Origin: Escherichia phage JLBYU43
DNA: 64,000 bases
Strand: one strand, 5' to 3'
Sequence record: NC_105512.1
The notes below the pieces were generated by a model that was not told where the DNA came from, ran no database searches, and saw only the letters and a program-made list of their open reading frames with translations. The translations under genes and the position numbers were made by a program. This document shows positions 29,966 to 34,969 of the stretch, in pieces; position 1 is the stretch's first letter, and each line of letters starts with the position of its first letter.

Positions 29966-29994
29966 TTGCTTTCAGGAAAAAATTTCTGTATAAT
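29966..29994 (+). promoter_or_regulatory. sigma70-type promoter, T5 PN25-like
   Basis: TTGCTTTCAGGAAAAAATTTCTGTATAATAGATTCATAAATTTGAGAGAGGAG, near-identical to the T5 PN25 promoter as recalled. Confidence 0.75.
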
Positions 29995-31859: not shown

Positions 31860-32168
31860 ATGAGCGAACAGGTAAATCAAAACTATGAAGGACACGTTGA
31901 TGACCAGTCCATCATACTTTGGGAGAAGGAGGGAGAACAAGTAAGATTAACAGTATCTGAATTTCGTGGGAATCTATACATGGGTATTCGTTACTGGCTT
32001 CTTGATATTAATGATGAATGGTTTCCAACGAAATCTGGCTTCTCTTTTCCTTACACCCTAGAAACAACATCACAGCTTTTCTATGCGTTTACACAGATTC
32101 TTAGTGAATCTGAGGTTTTACATGAAGTACAGAAACGAGCTGAAGAACTCAAAGCCAAGAATGCCTAG
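31860..32168 (+). CDS. hypothetical protein (102 aa)
   Basis: ORF-track ORF. Confidence 0.5.
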   Translation: MSEQVNQNYEGHVDDQSIILWEKEGEQVRLTVSEFRGNLYMGIRYWLLDINDEWFPTKSGFSFPYTLETTSQLFYAFTQILSESEVLHEVQKRAEELKAKNA

Positions 32169-32195
32169 TTCTTGGCTTTTTCTTTATAAATGTAT

Positions 32196-32224
32196 TTGCT
32201 TTCAACTCAGTTTTATTATATAAT
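32196..32224 (+). promoter_or_regulatory. sigma70-type promoter (TTGCTT-17-TATAAT)
   Basis: TTGCTT, TCAACTCAGTTTTATTA, TATAAT, leader ATAAATTGATGAGAG. Confidence 0.65.
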
Positions 32225-32255
32225 ATTTATATAAATTGATGAGAGATATAAATAA

Positions 32256-33227
32256 ATGACTAATGTAAAAGACTTTATTAAACGTTGCCAAGAAGCGTAT
32301 TACCAGGGAATGTCTTTAATCTCTGACGAAGAATATGATCGTCTGATTAAAAGATTTCCGTTAGAAGAAGAGATCGGGCCTAAGGGCGATATTCCACATC
32401 TGTATCGTATGTATTCTTTACAGAAAGTTTACTTTGATCGTGGTGATAAAGCTCCGTTTACTACCCTTGATGATGTAGAAACTGATAAGTTAGATGGTTG
32501 TGCAATTTCTCTACTGTATATCGACGGAACGTTTGTTCAAGCATTAACTCGTGGTAATGGTATTCTAGGAAATGATGTCACAAGCAACGTTAGATTGCTG
32601 AACATCCCGAAAAAGATTTCCCAAAAAGTACCAACTCAAATCACTGGTGAAGTTCTTATCACTAAAGAAGTAGAAAACAAACGTAACTACGCTTCCGGTG
32701 CTATTAACTTAAAAGAAGAAGATGACTTCATCGAACGTATTGCAGAAGGTGGCTTGATTTTTGTAGCGTACGGTATTCAGTGTTCAGAGGATTCTGTAGG
32801 TATTACAGGTTCTTACTTAGATGATATGTCTTGGTTGGCTAACGAAGATTTTATCACTGTAATGAACATTAAAAACTACTTTAATTGGTATCCAACGGAT
32901 GGTAAAGTAGTTCGTATTAATGACAACAACAAATTCTTCCGTGAAGGTTGGACAAATAAACATCCTCGTGGTGCTTATGCAATCAAACAAGATGAAGAAG
33001 GCGAAATTACAACTCTTCTCAAAGTTGAATGGCAGGTAGGGGCTTCTGGTAAAGTAACTCCAGTTGGTTATTTCGAACCGGTAATTATTGATGATGCTAC
33101 AATTGTTAAGGCGACTCTTAATAACGTTGATTATATTAACTCTCTTGATCTAGAGATCGGTTGCCAGATTCGAGTAATTCGTGCTGGTGGTGTAATCCCG
33201 TGTATAGTAGAGCGAGTATACGATTAA
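32256..33227 (+). CDS. ligA: NAD-dependent DNA ligase, N-terminal half (adenylation and OB domains)
   Basis: SDEEYDRL (domain Ia), KLDGCAISLLY (KxDG adenylation lysine), TRGNGILGNDVTSNVR and IRAGGVIP match LigA motifs. Confidence 0.8.
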   Translation: MTNVKDFIKRCQEAYYQGMSLISDEEYDRLIKRFPLEEEIGPKGDIPHLYRMYSLQKVYFDRGDKAPFTTLDDVETDKLDGCAISLLYIDGTFVQALTRGNGILGNDVTSNVRLLNIPKKISQKVPTQITGEVLITKEVENKRNYASGAINLKEEDDFIERIAEGGLIFVAYGIQCSEDSVGITGSYLDDMSWLANEDFITVMNIKNYFNWYPTDGKVVRINDNNKFFREGWTNKHPRGAYAIKQDEEGEITTLLKVEWQVGASGKVTPVGYFEPVIIDDATIVKATLNNVDYINSLDLEIGCQIRVIRAGGVIPCIVERVYD

Positions 33228-33277
33228 TACATAACCCTTTGCTACCCATCTACCATATCGGAATTATAAAGTGGTTA

Positions 33278-33306
33278 TTGACATTTTCGCCGCTTAGGTA
33301 TATACT
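33278..33306 (+). promoter_or_regulatory. sigma70-type promoter (TTGACA-17-TATACT)
   Basis: TTGACA, 17 nt, TATACT inside the 200-bp gap between the two ligase ORFs. Confidence 0.5.
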
Positions 33307-33370
33307 ATTATCATTCAGTTGAGGGATAGAAAGTTATGGCGAGGGTAAGCAAAGTTAGTTAAAATTGTAG

Positions 33371-33399
33371 TTGCTAAATGCTTAAATACTTGCTATAAT
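33371..33399 (+). promoter_or_regulatory. sigma70-type promoter (TTGCTA-17-TATAAT)
   Basis: TTGCTA, AATGCTTAAATACTTGC, TATAAT, leader ATAAATTGATAAGGAAG. Confidence 0.65.
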
Positions 33400-33429
33400 A
33401 TTTATATAAATTGATAAGGAAGAAATTTG

Positions 33430-34209
33430 ATGAAAATCGAAATTCCAACACAATGTCCCTCTTGTGGTTCTAAGCTAGATCTTGTCAACGGACAATTATT
33501 CTGTCGGAATAAGTCCAACTGTCCAGCGCAATCAAGTAAGTTAATTGAGAACTTCTGTACAAAAATGAAGTTAAAGGGCTTTGGTCCAAAAACTATTGAG
33601 AAGCTGGAGCTGACGAAGATTTCAGAACTATTTTACCTAACCGAAGAAGATTTGGTTAGAGCCGTGGGTAGCAAGGTTGCCGCTAAGTTAATTAGCGAAT
33701 TAAATACTAAAGTTCGCGGAGACATTGACTTTGGTTCAGTTCTCGGTTCTTTAGGAATCCCTCTAATCGGAGAGGTTGCAGCAAAGAAATTATCCCAAAA
33801 TTGCACTAGCTTCCACGATGTGAAGGCTGACGGCAAGGCTGGAGAAAATTATAAAGCCTGGCTAAATTCCCCACAAGGCAAGGATGTTATCGAATTACCG
33901 TGGAAATTTTCAACTGGTATTAGGGGCACTAAAGCTAATATCATCATTACAGATGAATTAGTTGCCCAGCCAAATGGAATCGCGGTATGTATTACCGGAT
34001 CTTTGCAAGATTTTGCAAATCGAACGGATGCAACAAACTATTTAGAAAGTCTAGGGTATACGGTTAAGAAATCAGTTACTAAAGACGTCAAATACCTAAT
34101 CTGTGAGGATGAATCAAAACGTTCTTCCTCATCTTATAAGAAAGCCGAAACGAATGGGATAGAAATCCTGTCGATTAAAGAACTATTGGAGAAAAATAAT
34201 AATGTCTAA
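33430..34209 (+). CDS. ligA: NAD-dependent DNA ligase, C-terminal half (Zn finger, HhH, BRCT)
   Basis: Zinc-finger CPSCGS...C..C, helix-hairpin-helix region and BRCT-like IAVCITGSL; ATG at 33430 preferred over the TTG at 33427. Confidence 0.75.
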   Translation: MKIEIPTQCPSCGSKLDLVNGQLFCRNKSNCPAQSSKLIENFCTKMKLKGFGPKTIEKLELTKISELFYLTEEDLVRAVGSKVAAKLISELNTKVRGDIDFGSVLGSLGIPLIGEVAAKKLSQNCTSFHDVKADGKAGENYKAWLNSPQGKDVIELPWKFSTGIRGTKANIIITDELVAQPNGIAVCITGSLQDFANRTDATNYLESLGYTVKKSVTKDVKYLICEDESKRSSSSYKKAETNGIEILSIKELLEKNNNV

Positions 34210-34969
34210 ACTGAACTGGAACGTAGAAGGTGTAACCGAGTCTCTGAAAGCAAAAGCCACTGCTCTGGGTGTTGCTGTAATCTCTCAAGAACAAGTAGCT
34301 GCTATCGCTGCTGAACTGGCCGCTGAAACTGGCAAAGATGTTACCGCTCGCTCTGTTGGCTCTAAACTGCGTAAAGAAGGTTTTGAAGTACAGAAAGCTA
34401 ATGAAGTACAGAAATCTCCGTGGACTCCTGAGCAGGAAGCTGAACTGGTTGATTTCCTGAACGCTCATGCTGGTCAGTATACCTATGCTGAAATCGCTGC
34501 TGCTGTAGCTGGTGGTCAGTTCGGTGCTAAGCAGGTACAGGGTAAGATTCTGAGCCTGGAAATGACCGCTTCTGTTAAGCCAACCGAAAAAGCTGCCGCT
34601 GTTCGTTCCTTCACTCCGGATGAAGAAACTGATTTTGTTAATCAGGTTGTTGCTGGTGCTACTATTGAAGCTATCGCTGCTCACTTCGGTCGTAATATCA
34701 AGCAGATCCGTGGTAAAGCTCTGAGCCTGCTTCGTGAAGGTCGTATCGCTGCTATGCCGGTACAGGAAACCTCAAGTGCTAAAACTCGTGAAGATCTGTT
34801 AGAAGGTCTGGATTTGGTTAACATGACTGTTGCTGAGATCGCCGAGAAAACTGGTAAGTCTGAGCGCGGTGTTAAATCTATGCTGTCTCGTCGTGGTCTG
34901 GTTGCTAAGGACTATGATGGTGCCGCTAAGCGTGCTAAACTGGATGCAAAAGCTGCGGCTGCTGAATAA
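34202..34969 (+). CDS. repeat-containing protein with four HTH-like repeats, host-like codon usage (possible T5 D5-like DNA-binding protein)
   Basis: Four tandem units sharing the pattern [hydrophobic]AEIAxxxG....R.VKS.LSRRGL; Ala-rich; E. coli-optimal codons. D5 identity is a guess from size and position. Confidence 0.6.
   Translation: MSKLNWNVEGVTESLKAKATALGVAVISQEQVAAIAAELAAETGKDVTARSVGSKLRKEGFEVQKANEVQKSPWTPEQEAELVDFLNAHAGQYTYAEIAAAVAGGQFGAKQVQGKILSLEMTASVKPTEKAAAVRSFTPDEETDFVNQVVAGATIEAIAAHFGRNIKQIRGKALSLLREGRIAAMPVQETSSAKTREDLLEGLDLVNMTVAEIAEKTGKSERGVKSMLSRRGLVAKDYDGAAKRAKLDAKAAAAE

What the first reader, a model, noticed from the sequence alone, without database searches (positions are those of the whole stretch)
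32256..34209. NAD-dependent DNA ligase split into two ORFs with promoters in the gap
The N-terminal ORF has the adenylation and OB motifs, the C-terminal ORF has the zinc finger, HhH and BRCT regions, and they are separated by 200 bp containing two promoter-like elements (TTGACA-17-TATACT and TTGCTA-17-TATAAT). The break is exactly at a domain boundary. The ligase may act as a two-subunit enzyme, or the gap may be the scar of an excised mobile element.
Basis: partly seen in the sequence, partly recalled or inferred. Interest (0 to 1): 0.45.

Follow-up and report, generated by a model that had tools for sequence, protein, structure and literature searches.

The report
Phage T5's known two-piece DNA ligase
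This is the two-gene NAD-dependent DNA ligase (ligA/ligB) of a T5-like phage with the two mapped T5 early promoters between the halves; it is real and conserved across the whole phage family, but it has been on record since the T5 genome paper of 2005.

Summary
ORF 32256-33227 (323 aa) carries domain Ia, the adenylation domain and the OB fold. ORF 33430-34209 (259 aa) carries the Cys4 zinc finger, HhH and BRCT. They lie 202 bp apart, and the break falls in the OB/zinc-finger linker.

The window is a Tequintavirus, about 92% identical to T5. The ORFs are T5 ligA (T5.116) and ligB (T5.117). The two promoter-like sites are the T5 record's annotated promoters P-K28b and P-K28a.

[quoted passage not shown] PDB entries 9HU3/9I5I hold both chains of the Providencia phage PR1 homologue.

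Findings added here:
- Every relative with at least 43% identity is split.
- Compact fused relatives of 555-586 aa sit at the same syntenic locus in uncultured T5-like phages.
- Every split relative examined has a promoter directly upstream of ligB.
- The gap is more conserved than the coding DNA (98.2% against 90% and 96%).
- In some relatives the gap holds GIY-YIG or T5orf172 endonuclease genes or other cargo.

Best explanation: a heterodimeric ligase whose second gene opens the ligB-D5-helicase transcription unit. The origin of the split is unresolved. Verdict: already known, low interest.

The parts
32151..32179 (+). Terminator-like hairpin followed by a T-run. It ends the upstream transcription unit (T5.115 homologue).
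   Evidence: 12-pair stem and T tail. The T5 record annotates its rho-independent terminator one gene further upstream, before T5.115.
32196..32224 (+). ligA promoter, TTGCTT-17-TATAAT, of the stereotyped T5 early class.
   Evidence: It corresponds to the unnamed promoter feature of the T5 record, L001 1577-1651 = window 32176-32250. The consensus scanner misses it because TTGCTT matches TTGACA at only 3 of 6 positions.
32256..33227 (+). ligA: ligase subunit A, 323 aa. Holds the domain Ia motif (YY..ISDEEYDRL), the adenylation domain with K78 in KLDG, and the OB fold.
   Evidence: phrog_3359, E 3e-168. It is the homologue of T5.116 ligA.
33228..33429 (+). 202-bp intergenic gap, 31% G+C, with stops in all three forward frames. 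It is the most conserved stretch of the locus.
   Evidence: mean pairwise identity 0.982, against 0.902 for ligA and 0.957 for ligB; identical to T5.
33278..33306 (+). Upstream promoter, TTGACA-17-TATACT. This is T5 promoter P-K 28b.
   Evidence: The T5 feature L001 2659-2733 maps to window 33258-33332. It is conserved as 'P1' in 11 lineages.
33333..33399 (+). Imperfect inverted repeat or hairpin (GTTATGGCGAG..TAAGCA..TTAGT / GCTAA..TGCTTA..CTTGCTATAAT). It is centred on the A-rich stretch upstream of P-K28a's -35 element, and its 3' arm runs through P-K28a's -35 and -10 elements.
   Evidence: -30.7 kcal/mol, z = -4.73 for 33313-33445; z = -2.57 for the 87-nt core. It is not conserved in register in other genera.
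33371..33399 (+). Downstream promoter, TTGCTA-17-(TG)TATAAT. This is T5 promoter P-K 28a.
   Evidence: The T5 feature L001 2752-2826 maps to window 33351-33425. It is conserved as 'P2' with an extended -10 in 11 lineages.
33394..33418 (+). 25-nt copy of the -10 element plus start-of-transcript module, TATAATATTTATATAAATTGATAAG. The other copy is at 32219-32243, in front of ligA.
   Evidence: 24 of 25 identical; 5 copies in the window with up to 3 mismatches, 0 expected.
33416..33422 (+). Shine-Dalgarno sequence AAGGAAG, 7 nt before the ligB ATG.
   Evidence: Read from the sequence. An RBS is annotated at the equivalent place in phage Stitch.
33430..34209 (+). ligB: ligase subunit B, 259 aa. 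Holds the Cys4 zinc finger (C9, C12, C25, C31), HhH repeats and BRCT.
   Evidence: phrog_3498, E 2e-137. It is the homologue of T5.117 ligB.
34202..34969 (+). D5 gene. Its ATG overlaps the end of ligB by 8 nt (ATGTCTAA), so ligB and D5 are read from one transcript.
   Evidence: D5 homologues follow the ligase in fused relatives too.

Best explanation
[quoted passage not shown] It carries out self-adenylylation and the chemistry of nick sealing.

**Subunit B (ligB)** holds the zinc finger, the HhH domain and BRCT. In single-chain LigA these parts clamp the enzyme round nicked DNA. The two proteins associate non-covalently to rebuild a LigA-like enzyme.

**The gap** between the genes is a regulatory region, not debris. 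It holds two tandem sigma-70 early promoters, T5's P-K28b and P-K28a. These start a transcription unit whose first cistron is ligB, followed by D5, which overlaps ligB's end, and by the DnaB-like helicase gene.

**What is shown and what is inferred.**
- Shown here: the anatomy, the colinearity of the halves with LigA, the conservation, and the distribution among relatives.
- Shown elsewhere for a homologue 53-56% identical: both chains present in one solved structure.
- Inferred: that this phage's subunits assemble and seal nicks with NAD+, and that transcription starts near 33313 and 33406.
For: **Identity with T5.**
- The region is about 92% identical in DNA to T5. T5 annotates ligA, ligB and the promoters P-K28b and P-K28a at the equivalent positions.
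- The split is named in papers.

**Colinearity.**
- Domain content is given.
- The halves are colinear with E. coli LigA, with phrog_3869 and TIGR00575, and with 12 fused relatives in which only 1-15 residues lie between the two matches.

**Catalytic and structural residues.**
- These residues are invariant across 7 genera: K78, D80, G81, R99, E132, K244, the Ia residues Y15, S23, E25, Y27 and D28, and the four zinc-finger cysteines.

**Selection.**
- Both halves are under purifying selection. Identity at codon positions 1/2/3 is 0.95/0.97/0.78 in ligA and 0.97/0.99/0.91 in ligB.

**Structure.**
- PDB 9HU3/9I5I contain both chains of the PR1 homologue.

**Distribution and expression signals.**
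- Every one of about 70 relatives with at least 43% identity whose contig reaches ligB is split in the same order and on the same strand.
- Every distinct ligB upstream region examined has a promoter-like site directly upstream of ligB.
- The tandem promoter spacing is conserved in 11 lineages.
- The gap is 98.2% conserved.
- ligB has its own Shine-Dalgarno sequence and overlaps D5.
Against: - No experiment on this phage's or T5's ligase was found in the searchable literature, and no paper for 9HU3 was found.
- Each half alone scores far below the NCBIfam LigA equivalog cut-off: 174.5 and 106.1 bits against 444.
- HHH_2 is just under its Pfam cut-off.
- The promoter calls rest on the T5 record's annotation and on conservation, not on transcript data seen here.
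- No terminator separates ligA from the promoters in this window, so read-through from the ligA promoter may also feed ligB.
Confidence: 0.9

Rival explanations
1. The split was made by a mobile element. A free-standing homing endonuclease gene, or another cassette carrying its own promoter, inserted into the OB/zinc-finger linker of a fused ligase gene. The element was later lost, leaving its promoter and ribosome site behind. The present gap would be that scar, since put to regulatory use. This concerns origin and is compatible with the two-subunit function.
For: - Fused relatives of 555-586 aa exist at the same syntenic locus, so fission or fusion did happen in this lineage.
- GIY-YIG or T5orf172 genes occupy the gap in four lineages: SP3, Kpn24-P3, L106 and L108.
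- In SP3 the endonuclease gene starts inside the end of ligA. There the flanking ligA DNA is only 78% identical, while the promoters and ligB are 99% identical. That pattern fits homing.
- The upstream promoter P1 is followed by a Shine-Dalgarno-like GAGGGA and only an 8-codon reading frame, as if a gene had been lost.
- There is a precedent in the Aeh1 nrdA gene split by mobE (PMC3045599, PMC2988022).
Against: - The endonuclease genes are rare: 2 distinct phages among about 440 T5-like records.
- They are of different families and sit upstream of the conserved promoter pair. They therefore look like later arrivals in an existing gap.
- The shortest gaps (64 nt, marine contigs) hold nothing but one promoter and a ribosome site.
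- No endonuclease remnant is detectable in the window's gap.
Confidence: 0.25
2. The split followed from an internal promoter. The downstream D5-helicase-primase genes need their own early promoter, and this promoter first lay inside the fused ligase gene near the domain boundary. Breaking the reading frame at the flexible linker freed the promoter from coding constraint. Endonucleases and other cargo came later.
For: - Every distinct ligB upstream region examined has a promoter directly before ligB, whatever the gap length.
- In fused relatives there is no intergenic space between the ligase gene and D5.
- All four independent fused genes have a promoter-like site of at least 10/12 within 180 nt of the OB/zinc-finger junction. 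That is 4 of the 6 such sites, in 21% of gene length, binomial p about 0.02.
- The L121 site (aaaatttaattcTTGACA-17-TGcCATAAT) resembles the gap promoters of the marine split relatives.
Against: - The statistic is post hoc and rests on four genes.
- The sites are at different positions (-48, +28, +175 and +177 nt from the first zinc-finger codon), so they are not homologous.
- Consensus matches are common in AT-rich phage DNA.
- There are no transcript data.
Confidence: 0.2
3. The split is a gene in decay, or an artefact. On this reading a sequencing or assembly error, or a recent inactivating mutation, broke a normal ligase gene, and one or both halves are not functional.
For: - Half-size ligase ORFs are often pseudogenes.
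- Each half fails the LigA equivalog cut-off.
- In phage EPS7 the ligB annotation is shortened to 129 aa.
Against: - The same split is present in 428 phage records covering the region and in 56 protein clusters at 50% identity.
- Third-codon positions vary far more than first and second in both halves.
- The catalytic and zinc-binding residues are invariant.
- ligB has its own start codon, ribosome site and promoters.
- A homologue has been solved as a two-chain enzyme.
Confidence: 0.01
4. The two halves are joined after transcription or translation to give one polypeptide, by an intron, an intein, a frameshift or ribosomal bypassing.
For: - T4-type phages contain group I introns, and T4 gene 60 has a translational bypass (literature listed).
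- ligB is in the +1 frame relative to ligA.
Against: - No Rfam family matches 32100-34400 at E up to 1.
- The halves carry no extra residues that could be intein fragments: only 1-15 linker residues separate them in fused relatives.
- All three frames have several stops in the gap.
- Gap length varies from 61 to 3836 bp among relatives.
- The PDB entry has two separate chains.
Confidence: 0.01

Closest known systems
Bacteriophage T5 ligA (T5.116) / ligB (T5.117) with promoters P-K28b and P-K28a (NC_005859; Wang et al. 2005, cited in PMC1684257)
   Same: - The gene pair, order, lengths (323 and 259 aa) and 202-bp gap are the same.
- The gap sequence is 100% identical.
- The flanking genes are the same: the T5.115 regulator upstream, D5 and the D6 helicase downstream.
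   Different: Only allelic divergence. ligA is 85% and ligB 96% identical in DNA to T5. The window is closest to Salmonella phage PK7, at 98.8%.
Two-chain NAD+ ligase of Providencia phage vB_PreS_PR1 (PDB 9HU3, 9I5I)
   Same: - The split architecture and the position of the split are the same.
- Chain A matches ORF1 at E 6e-102, and chain B matches ORF2 at E 5.7e-81.
- The PR1 gap also holds a tandem promoter pair.
   Different: - Identity is 53-56%.
- PR1 has an annotated terminator right after ligA, which this window lacks.
- No paper describing the structure was found.
Single-chain bacterial LigA (E. coli 2OWO, Thermus filiformis 1V9P/1DGS)
   Same: - The domain order is the same: Ia, adenylation, OB, zinc finger, HhH, BRCT.
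- The KxDG lysine and the Cys4 finger are present.
- The halves are colinear with LigA over residues of about 13-390 and 402-666.
   Different: - It is two polypeptides instead of one.
- It is more compact: 582 aa in all against 671.
- It is divergent, at 25-40% identity in the matched blocks.
- It scores below the NCBIfam equivalog cut-offs.
Compact fused ligases (555-586 aa) of uncultured T5-like phages (P0039, P0042, P0054, P0057; loci L121-L125)
   Same: - They are 36-41% identical to ORF1 and 29-37% to ORF2, colinear with both.
- They lie in the same replication-module synteny, with a D5 homologue after the ligase in all and DnaB and primase after that where the contig reaches.
   Different: - They are one reading frame, with a 1-15-residue linker where T5 has the gap.
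- There is no intergenic promoter region.
- They are known only from metagenomes. None was found among 50,697 phage records.
Aeromonas phage Aeh1 nrdA split by the homing endonuclease gene mobE ('genes in pieces'; PMC3045599, PMC2988022)
   Same: An essential DNA-metabolism enzyme of a lytic phage is divided into two genes whose products reassemble. Endonuclease genes occupy the split site in some relatives.
   Different: - In this window and in most relatives the split site holds promoters and no endonuclease.
- The ligase halves carry no added interaction tails.
- Whether an endonuclease caused the split is unknown.

Membership tests
NAD+-dependent DNA ligase (LigA family) | Adenylation (nucleotidyltransferase) domain with the motif I lysine, KxDG | tested here: met
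   PF01653 scores 82.5 bits against a cut-off of 27. K78, D80 and G81 in KLDG are invariant in 7 genera.
NAD+-dependent DNA ligase (LigA family) | N-terminal domain Ia with the NMN-binding motif (YH..D..YD in E. coli, recalled from memory), which marks NAD+ rather than ATP use | tested here: inconclusive
   The sequence AYYQGMSLISDEEYDRL aligns with T. filiformis residues 13-52, including ISDAEYDRL, but at only 3 bits. Y15, S23, E25, Y27 and D28 are invariant. Cofactor use was not measured.
NAD+-dependent DNA ligase (LigA family) | OB-fold domain following the adenylation domain | tested here: met
   PF03120 scores 78.7 bits against a cut-off of 32.9, over residues 252-321.
NAD+-dependent DNA ligase (LigA family) | Cys4 zinc finger, HhH domain and BRCT domain C-terminal to the OB fold | tested here: met
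   C9, C12, C25 and C31 are invariant. ORF2 residues 3-122 align with 2owo 402-529, and 169-253 with 585-666. BRCT scores 33.3 bits against 21.3. HHH_2 scores 24.5 bits, just below its cut-off of 27.
NAD+-dependent DNA ligase (LigA family) | All domains in one polypeptide that reaches the curated equivalog score (TIGR00575, cut-off 444 bits) | tested here: not met
   There are two ORFs. They score 174.5 and 106.1 bits.
NAD+-dependent DNA ligase (LigA family) | NAD+-dependent sealing of nicks in duplex DNA | not testable with these tools
   This needs purified proteins.
T5-type two-subunit ligase (ligA/ligB of Demerecviridae) | N-terminal half is a full-length member of the stand-alone half family | tested here: met
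   phrog_3359 matches at E 3e-168, residues 1-323 on profile positions 1-325 of 325. ORF1 is 89% identical to T5 LigA.
T5-type two-subunit ligase (ligA/ligB of Demerecviridae) | C-terminal half is a full-length member of the stand-alone half family | tested here: met
   phrog_3498 matches at E 2.1e-137, residues 1-258 on profile positions 1-255 of 256. ORF2 is 97% identical to T5 LigB.
T5-type two-subunit ligase (ligA/ligB of Demerecviridae) | The halves are adjacent, on the same strand, in the order A then B, between the T5.115-type regulator gene and D5/DnaB | tested here: met
   The same holds in all relatives with at least 43% identity whose contig reaches ligB, about 70 loci.
T5-type two-subunit ligase (ligA/ligB of Demerecviridae) | The two products form one enzyme complex | not testable with these tools
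   This is supported only by analogy. PDB 9HU3/9I5I contain both chains of the PR1 homologue.
T5 early promoters P-K28b / P-K28a | Sequence identity with the promoter features of the T5 record, and -35/-10 hexamers 17 bp apart | tested here: met
   The gap is 100% identical to T5's. The hexamers are given. The T5 features map to window 33258-33332 and 33351-33425.
T5 early promoters P-K28b / P-K28a | Transcription initiation by host RNA polymerase at these sites | not testable with these tools
   This rests on the T5 record's annotation. The original mapping papers were not in the searchable library.
Gene split by a free-standing homing endonuclease ('genes in pieces') | An endonuclease gene lies between the two halves | tested here: not met
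   The window's gap holds no ORF of 30 aa or more. The feature is met only in some relatives: SP3 with GIY-YIG (26 bits against 22.6), and Kpn24-P3, L106 and L108 with T5orf172.
Intron- or intein-interrupted gene | A self-splicing RNA fold, or intein blocks, at the interruption | tested here: not met
   Rfam gives no match at E up to 1. The halves abut with no extra residues.

The most novel reading that the evidence does not exclude
The gap may be an ancient, self-contained regulatory island, and the ligase may be split because of it. On this reading:
- A promoter needed for the D5-helicase-primase genes first lay inside a fused ligase gene.
- The frame then broke at the flexible OB/zinc-finger linker.
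- The resulting non-coding site became a recurrent landing place for endonuclease genes and other cargo (NADAR, DprA-like and carbamoyltransferase genes).

Within Tequintavirus the island is conserved beyond what two promoters need. It carries an inverted repeat centred on the A-rich stretch upstream of P-K28a's -35 element, with its 3' arm running through the -35 and -10 elements. That repeat could be an operator or a leader hairpin that sets the ligA:ligB ratio or times the ligB-D5 unit.
Probability: 0.2. Interest if true: 0.35.

Novelty: already known. Interest (0 to 1): 0.12.

Why it matters
**For the scan.** This finding needs no follow-up as a discovery. The split ligase and the promoters are in the T5 GenBank record, in papers from 2005 onward, and now in the PDB.

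**For the biology.** The locus is a clean natural example of an enzyme cut at a domain linker that still works. It bears on how multi-domain DNA enzymes tolerate fission, and on the design of split ligases.

**What the comparative picture here adds.**
- Fused and split versions occur at one syntenic locus.
- There is always a promoter in front of ligB.
- The gap is used repeatedly by mobile endonuclease genes.

Together these give a testable account of why the split persists. That account is an extension of known facts, not a new kind of system.

Tried and rejected
1. **Rfam** on 32100-34400 at permissive E-values gave nothing, so there is no intron or known RNA.
2. **A conserved RNA hairpin in the P-K28b leader.**
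   - The signal is strong in the window (z = -4.73) and in Providencia (z = -3.76).
   - Z-scores in nine other lineages run from +0.14 to -1.55.
   - RNAalifold finds no consensus pair.
   - I rejected it as a family-wide structure and kept it only as a local inverted repeat.
3. **A protein encoded in the gap.** There is only an 8-codon frame (MARVSKVS) after a Shine-Dalgarno-like GAGGGA. It is not conserved in Klebsiella, Providencia or Vibrio phages.
4. **Promoter count as statistical evidence.** The count is not above chance. The case rests on annotation and conservation instead.
5. **Literature.**
   - Searches for 9HU3, 'split ligase', 'T5 ligase' and K28a/K28b found no primary paper on the enzyme, the structure or the promoter mapping.
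   - The attribution of P-K28a/b to the Bujard laboratory's T5 promoter work is from memory only.
6. **IMG/VR scans** with the fused proteins P0039 and P0042 found no loci. Their contigs were reached through the exact-sequence look-up instead.
7. **A neighbour-joining tree of 112 N-terminal regions** mixes fused and split forms on long unresolved branches. It cannot say how many fission or fusion events there were.
8. **Length differences among close relatives** (2470-2766 bp against 2301) turned out to be small ORFs inserted upstream of ligA, not in the gap.
Full report
**What is in the sequence.**

Two same-strand ORFs lie at 32256-33227 (323 aa) and 33430-34209 (259 aa from the ATG; an in-frame TTG lies one codon upstream). 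The first matches the NAD-ligase adenylation domain (82.5 bits) and the ligase OB fold (78.7 bits). The second matches BRCT (33.3 bits) and, just under threshold, HhH (24.5 bits against 27). The second ORF also has four cysteines in a CxxC...CxxxxxC pattern that are invariant in seven genera.

The 202-bp gap is AT-rich (31% G+C) and has stop codons in all three forward frames. It contains TTGACA-17-TATACT at 33278-33306 and TTGCTA-17-TATAAT at 33371-33399. An AAGGAAG ribosome site lies 7 nt before the ligB ATG.

**The break is at a domain boundary and nothing is missing.**

- Against solved E. coli LigA, ORF1 residue 320 pairs with residue 390 and ORF2 residue 3 with residue 402.
- On the fused phage profile phrog_3869 the halves cover positions 9-381 and 388-654.
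- On TIGR00575, ORF1's best stretch ends at position 378 and ORF2 covers 388-651.
- In twelve fused relatives the two ORFs align colinearly with 1-15 residues between them. The window's ...IPCIVERVYD* // MKIEIPTQCPSC corresponds to ...IPKIINVLSSGTGRIIAPTECPSC in P0042.
- There is no room for intein fragments, and Rfam finds no intron or other RNA family.

**It is already known.**

The window is a T5-like phage, 98.8% identical to Salmonella phage PK7 and about 92% to T5 over this region. 428 phage records cover at least 80% of the region. The T5 reference record annotates ligA (T5.116), ligB (T5.117), and three promoter features. Many relatives label the genes 'subunit A' and 'subunit B'.

[quoted passage not shown] PHROGs holds separate families for each half: phrog_3359 at E 3e-168 and phrog_3498 at E 2e-137.

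The Protein Data Bank holds two entries, 9HU3 and 9I5I, with a 339-aa 'DNA ligase (NAD(+))' chain and a 248-aa 'DNA ligase subunit B' chain. The A chain is 100% identical to LigA of Providencia phage vB_PreS_PR1. I found no paper for these entries.

**How it most likely works.**

Subunit A has what is needed for the first step of the reaction:
- a domain Ia-like motif (AYYQGMSLISDEEYDRL, aligned with the T. filiformis Ia region);
- the KLDG lysine K78, and the other nucleotidyltransferase residues R99, E132 and K244;
- the OB fold.

All of these residues are invariant across genera. A C-terminally truncated archaeal LigN with the same domain content still adenylylates itself (PMC1684257). Subunit B supplies the zinc finger, HhH and BRCT. 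From established knowledge of LigA, these are the DNA-clamping parts. That both chains are deposited together for the PR1 enzyme supports a non-covalent heterodimer.

Both genes are under purifying selection. Identity at codon positions 1/2/3 is 0.95/0.97/0.78 in ligA and 0.97/0.99/0.91 in ligB. The assembly and activity of this particular phage's proteins are inferred, not shown.

**The gap is a regulatory region, not debris.**

Among eight Tequintavirus and Epseptimavirus sequences the gap has 98.2% mean pairwise identity and 96% invariant columns. The figures for ligA and ligB are 90.2% and 95.7% identity. The window's gap is identical to T5's, although its ligA is only 85% identical.

The -10 element and the first 19 transcribed bases of P-K28a (TATAATATTTATATAAATTGATAAG) recur in front of ligA at 32219. 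They belong to a stereotyped class of about twenty early promoters in the window, of the form aAAAAtt..TTGCTw-17-TATAAT..ATAAATTGA.

A terminator-like hairpin (32151-32179) and a promoter precede ligA, and no terminator follows it. ligB overlaps the D5 start by 8 nt. So ligA has its own unit, and ligB opens the ligB-D5-helicase unit.

**Comparative survey.**

In 79 IMG/VR loci and 6 GenBank loci, every relative with at least 43% identity to ORF1 whose contig reaches ligB is split in the same way. The seven relatives at 32% identity or less, from other kinds of phage, are fused. Gap length varies:
- 202 bp in nearly all Tequintavirus and Epseptimavirus phages;
- 199 bp in Klebsiella phages;
- 192 bp in Providencia phage PR1;
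- 178 bp in Aeromonas phage AhSzq-1;
- 61-73 bp in marine contigs;
- up to 3.8 kb where genes are inserted.

Every distinct ligB upstream region examined has a promoter-like site directly upstream of ligB. In the marine contigs a single TTGACT-17-TATAAT fills the 64-nt gap. Eleven lineages of enterobacterial, Vibrio and Aeromonas phages have the tandem pair, with 57-68 bp between the first -10 and the second -35, and 27-31 nt from the second -10 to the ATG.

A search of 1.84 billion cluster representatives puts 56 clusters of stand-alone N-terminal halves (304-339 aa) at the top. From rank 39 onward there are compact fused ligases of 555-586 aa. Four of these were traced to contigs with the T5 gene order: a D5 homologue (E 1e-46 to 1e-51) follows the ligase in all, and DnaB and primase follow where the contig reaches. 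So intact versions exist in uncultured T5-like phages. None was found among 50,697 deposited phage genomes.

A neighbour-joining tree does not resolve how often fission or fusion happened.

**Mobile elements in the gap.**

- Salmonella phage SP3 (= L063) has a 218-aa GIY-YIG gene (26 bits against 22.6). It begins inside the end of ligA and ends upstream of P-K28b. The ligA DNA beside it is only 78% identical to the window, while the promoters and ligB are 99% identical.
- Only two distinct phages carry that gene.
- Klebsiella phage vB_Kpn24-P3 has a 232-aa protein with treble-clef zinc fingers and a T5orf172 domain in the gap. Its relative Roth50 has an empty 199-bp gap.
- Two marine contigs have T5orf172 genes there.
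- Other gaps hold a NADAR-domain gene (L073), DprA-like genes (Vibrio phages), or a 3.8-kb block with 2OG-Fe(II) oxygenase and carbamoyltransferase genes (L106).

The sporadic and mixed contents, always upstream of the conserved promoter or promoters, look like later settlement of an existing non-coding site. This does not exclude that an element of this kind made the first cut, as mobE did in Aeh1 nrdA (PMC3045599).

**A lead on why the split exists.**

In the fused relatives there is no space for a promoter between the ligase gene and D5. All four independent fused genes carry a promoter-like site of at least 10/12 within 180 nt of the OB/zinc-finger junction. That is 4 of the 6 such sites in 21% of the gene length, p about 0.02, a post hoc figure. 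The L121 site resembles the marine gap promoters. This fits an internal promoter that preceded the split, but the evidence is thin.

**What did not hold up.**

The leader from P-K28b folds unusually well in the window (z = -4.73). However, the signal is absent in most other genera and there is no consensus structure. What recurs is a local inverted repeat around the second promoter's -35 element. Its sequence and register differ between genera, and its meaning is open.

**Verdict.**

The feature is already known from annotation, literature and structure. Interest is low. The comparative details are modest additions.

Noticed in passing
window 33228-33429, compared with L001-L004 and L010-L012: The non-coding gap is more conserved than the genes on either side. 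It has 98.2% mean pairwise identity and 96% invariant columns. It is identical to T5's gap, although ligA is only 85% identical. Divergence changes sharply across the gap: ligA 85% against ligB 96% relative to T5. This suggests a recombination boundary.
   Followed up: partly
window 33333-33399; also window about 2730-2690 (minus strand) and loci L013, L073, L074, L008: Inverted repeats flank the A-rich upstream element of the second promoter and include its -35 hexamer. Examples: TAAGCA..TGCTTA here; CTTAGCAAG-N15-CTTGCTAAG in L074 (L073 has the 9-nt TTAGCAAGT / ACTTGCTAA); GACTGAGC..GCTTAGTC in Klebsiella phage. One other early promoter of the window has a perfect 12-bp version, GCACTGAGCAAG-N15-CTTGCTCAGTGC. 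It could be an operator or a leader hairpin; this is undecided.
   Followed up: partly
window, about 20 sites (for example 29966, 30980, 32196, 38301 and 42883 on +; 864, 3676, 8544, 11457 and 15900 on -): There is a stereotyped family of T5 early promoters: an A-tract, TTGCTw, a 17-bp spacer, TATAAT, then ATAAATTGA and a ribosome site. The copy at 29966 closely resembles what I recall of the classical T5 P-N25 promoter sequence.
   Followed up: partly
L002, L003, L004, L011, L012, between the T5.115 homologue and ligA: Relatives carry one or two extra small ORFs (64-90 aa, hypothetical) inserted just upstream of ligA. These account for the length differences of 170-465 bp. The window and T5 lack them. 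This is a second variable spot in the locus.
   Followed up: no
L073 5953-6609: A NADAR-domain protein (218 aa, 110 bits) is encoded in the ligA-ligB gap of one relative. It is an ADP-ribose-processing type of enzyme placed inside an NAD-consuming ligase locus.
   Followed up: no
L008 4127-4687, L080 6385-6948, L076 6093-6785: Vibrio-phage relatives carry a conserved gene of 186-230 aa in the gap. It has a faint DprA-like (DNA_processg_A) match, E about 0.008, below threshold.
   Followed up: no
L106 5927-9763: One marine relative has 3.8 kb between ligA and ligB. The block holds a T5orf172 gene, a 2OG-Fe(II) oxygenase, a 204-aa ORF that was not scanned, a carbamoyltransferase (172 and 140 bits) and one more ORF. 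It looks like a nucleotide- or DNA-modification cassette.
   Followed up: no
L121 6992-7020: The fused ligase gene of an uncultured T5-like phage contains TTGACA-17-TGcCATAAT (11 of 12), with an A-rich upstream stretch, inside the zinc-finger coding region 28 nt past the first cysteine codon. Other fused genes have sites of at least 10/12 within 180 nt of the junction.
   Followed up: partly
L010 2220-2609 (phage EPS7): ligB is annotated as only 129 aa in the EPS7 record, although its DNA aligns full-length at 95% identity. This is probably a frameshift or an annotation error in that record.
   Followed up: no
window 34202-34209: The D5 start codon overlaps the end of ligB (ATGTCTAA), which implies translational coupling. 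The same tight junction or overlap is seen in the fused relatives.
   Followed up: no
L013 1540-2064 (Klebsiella phage Roth50): A gene annotated 'zinc-binding loop region of homing endonuclease' lies upstream of ligA and overlaps the end of the T5.115-type regulator gene. This is another endonuclease-type gene in the same replication module.
   Followed up: no
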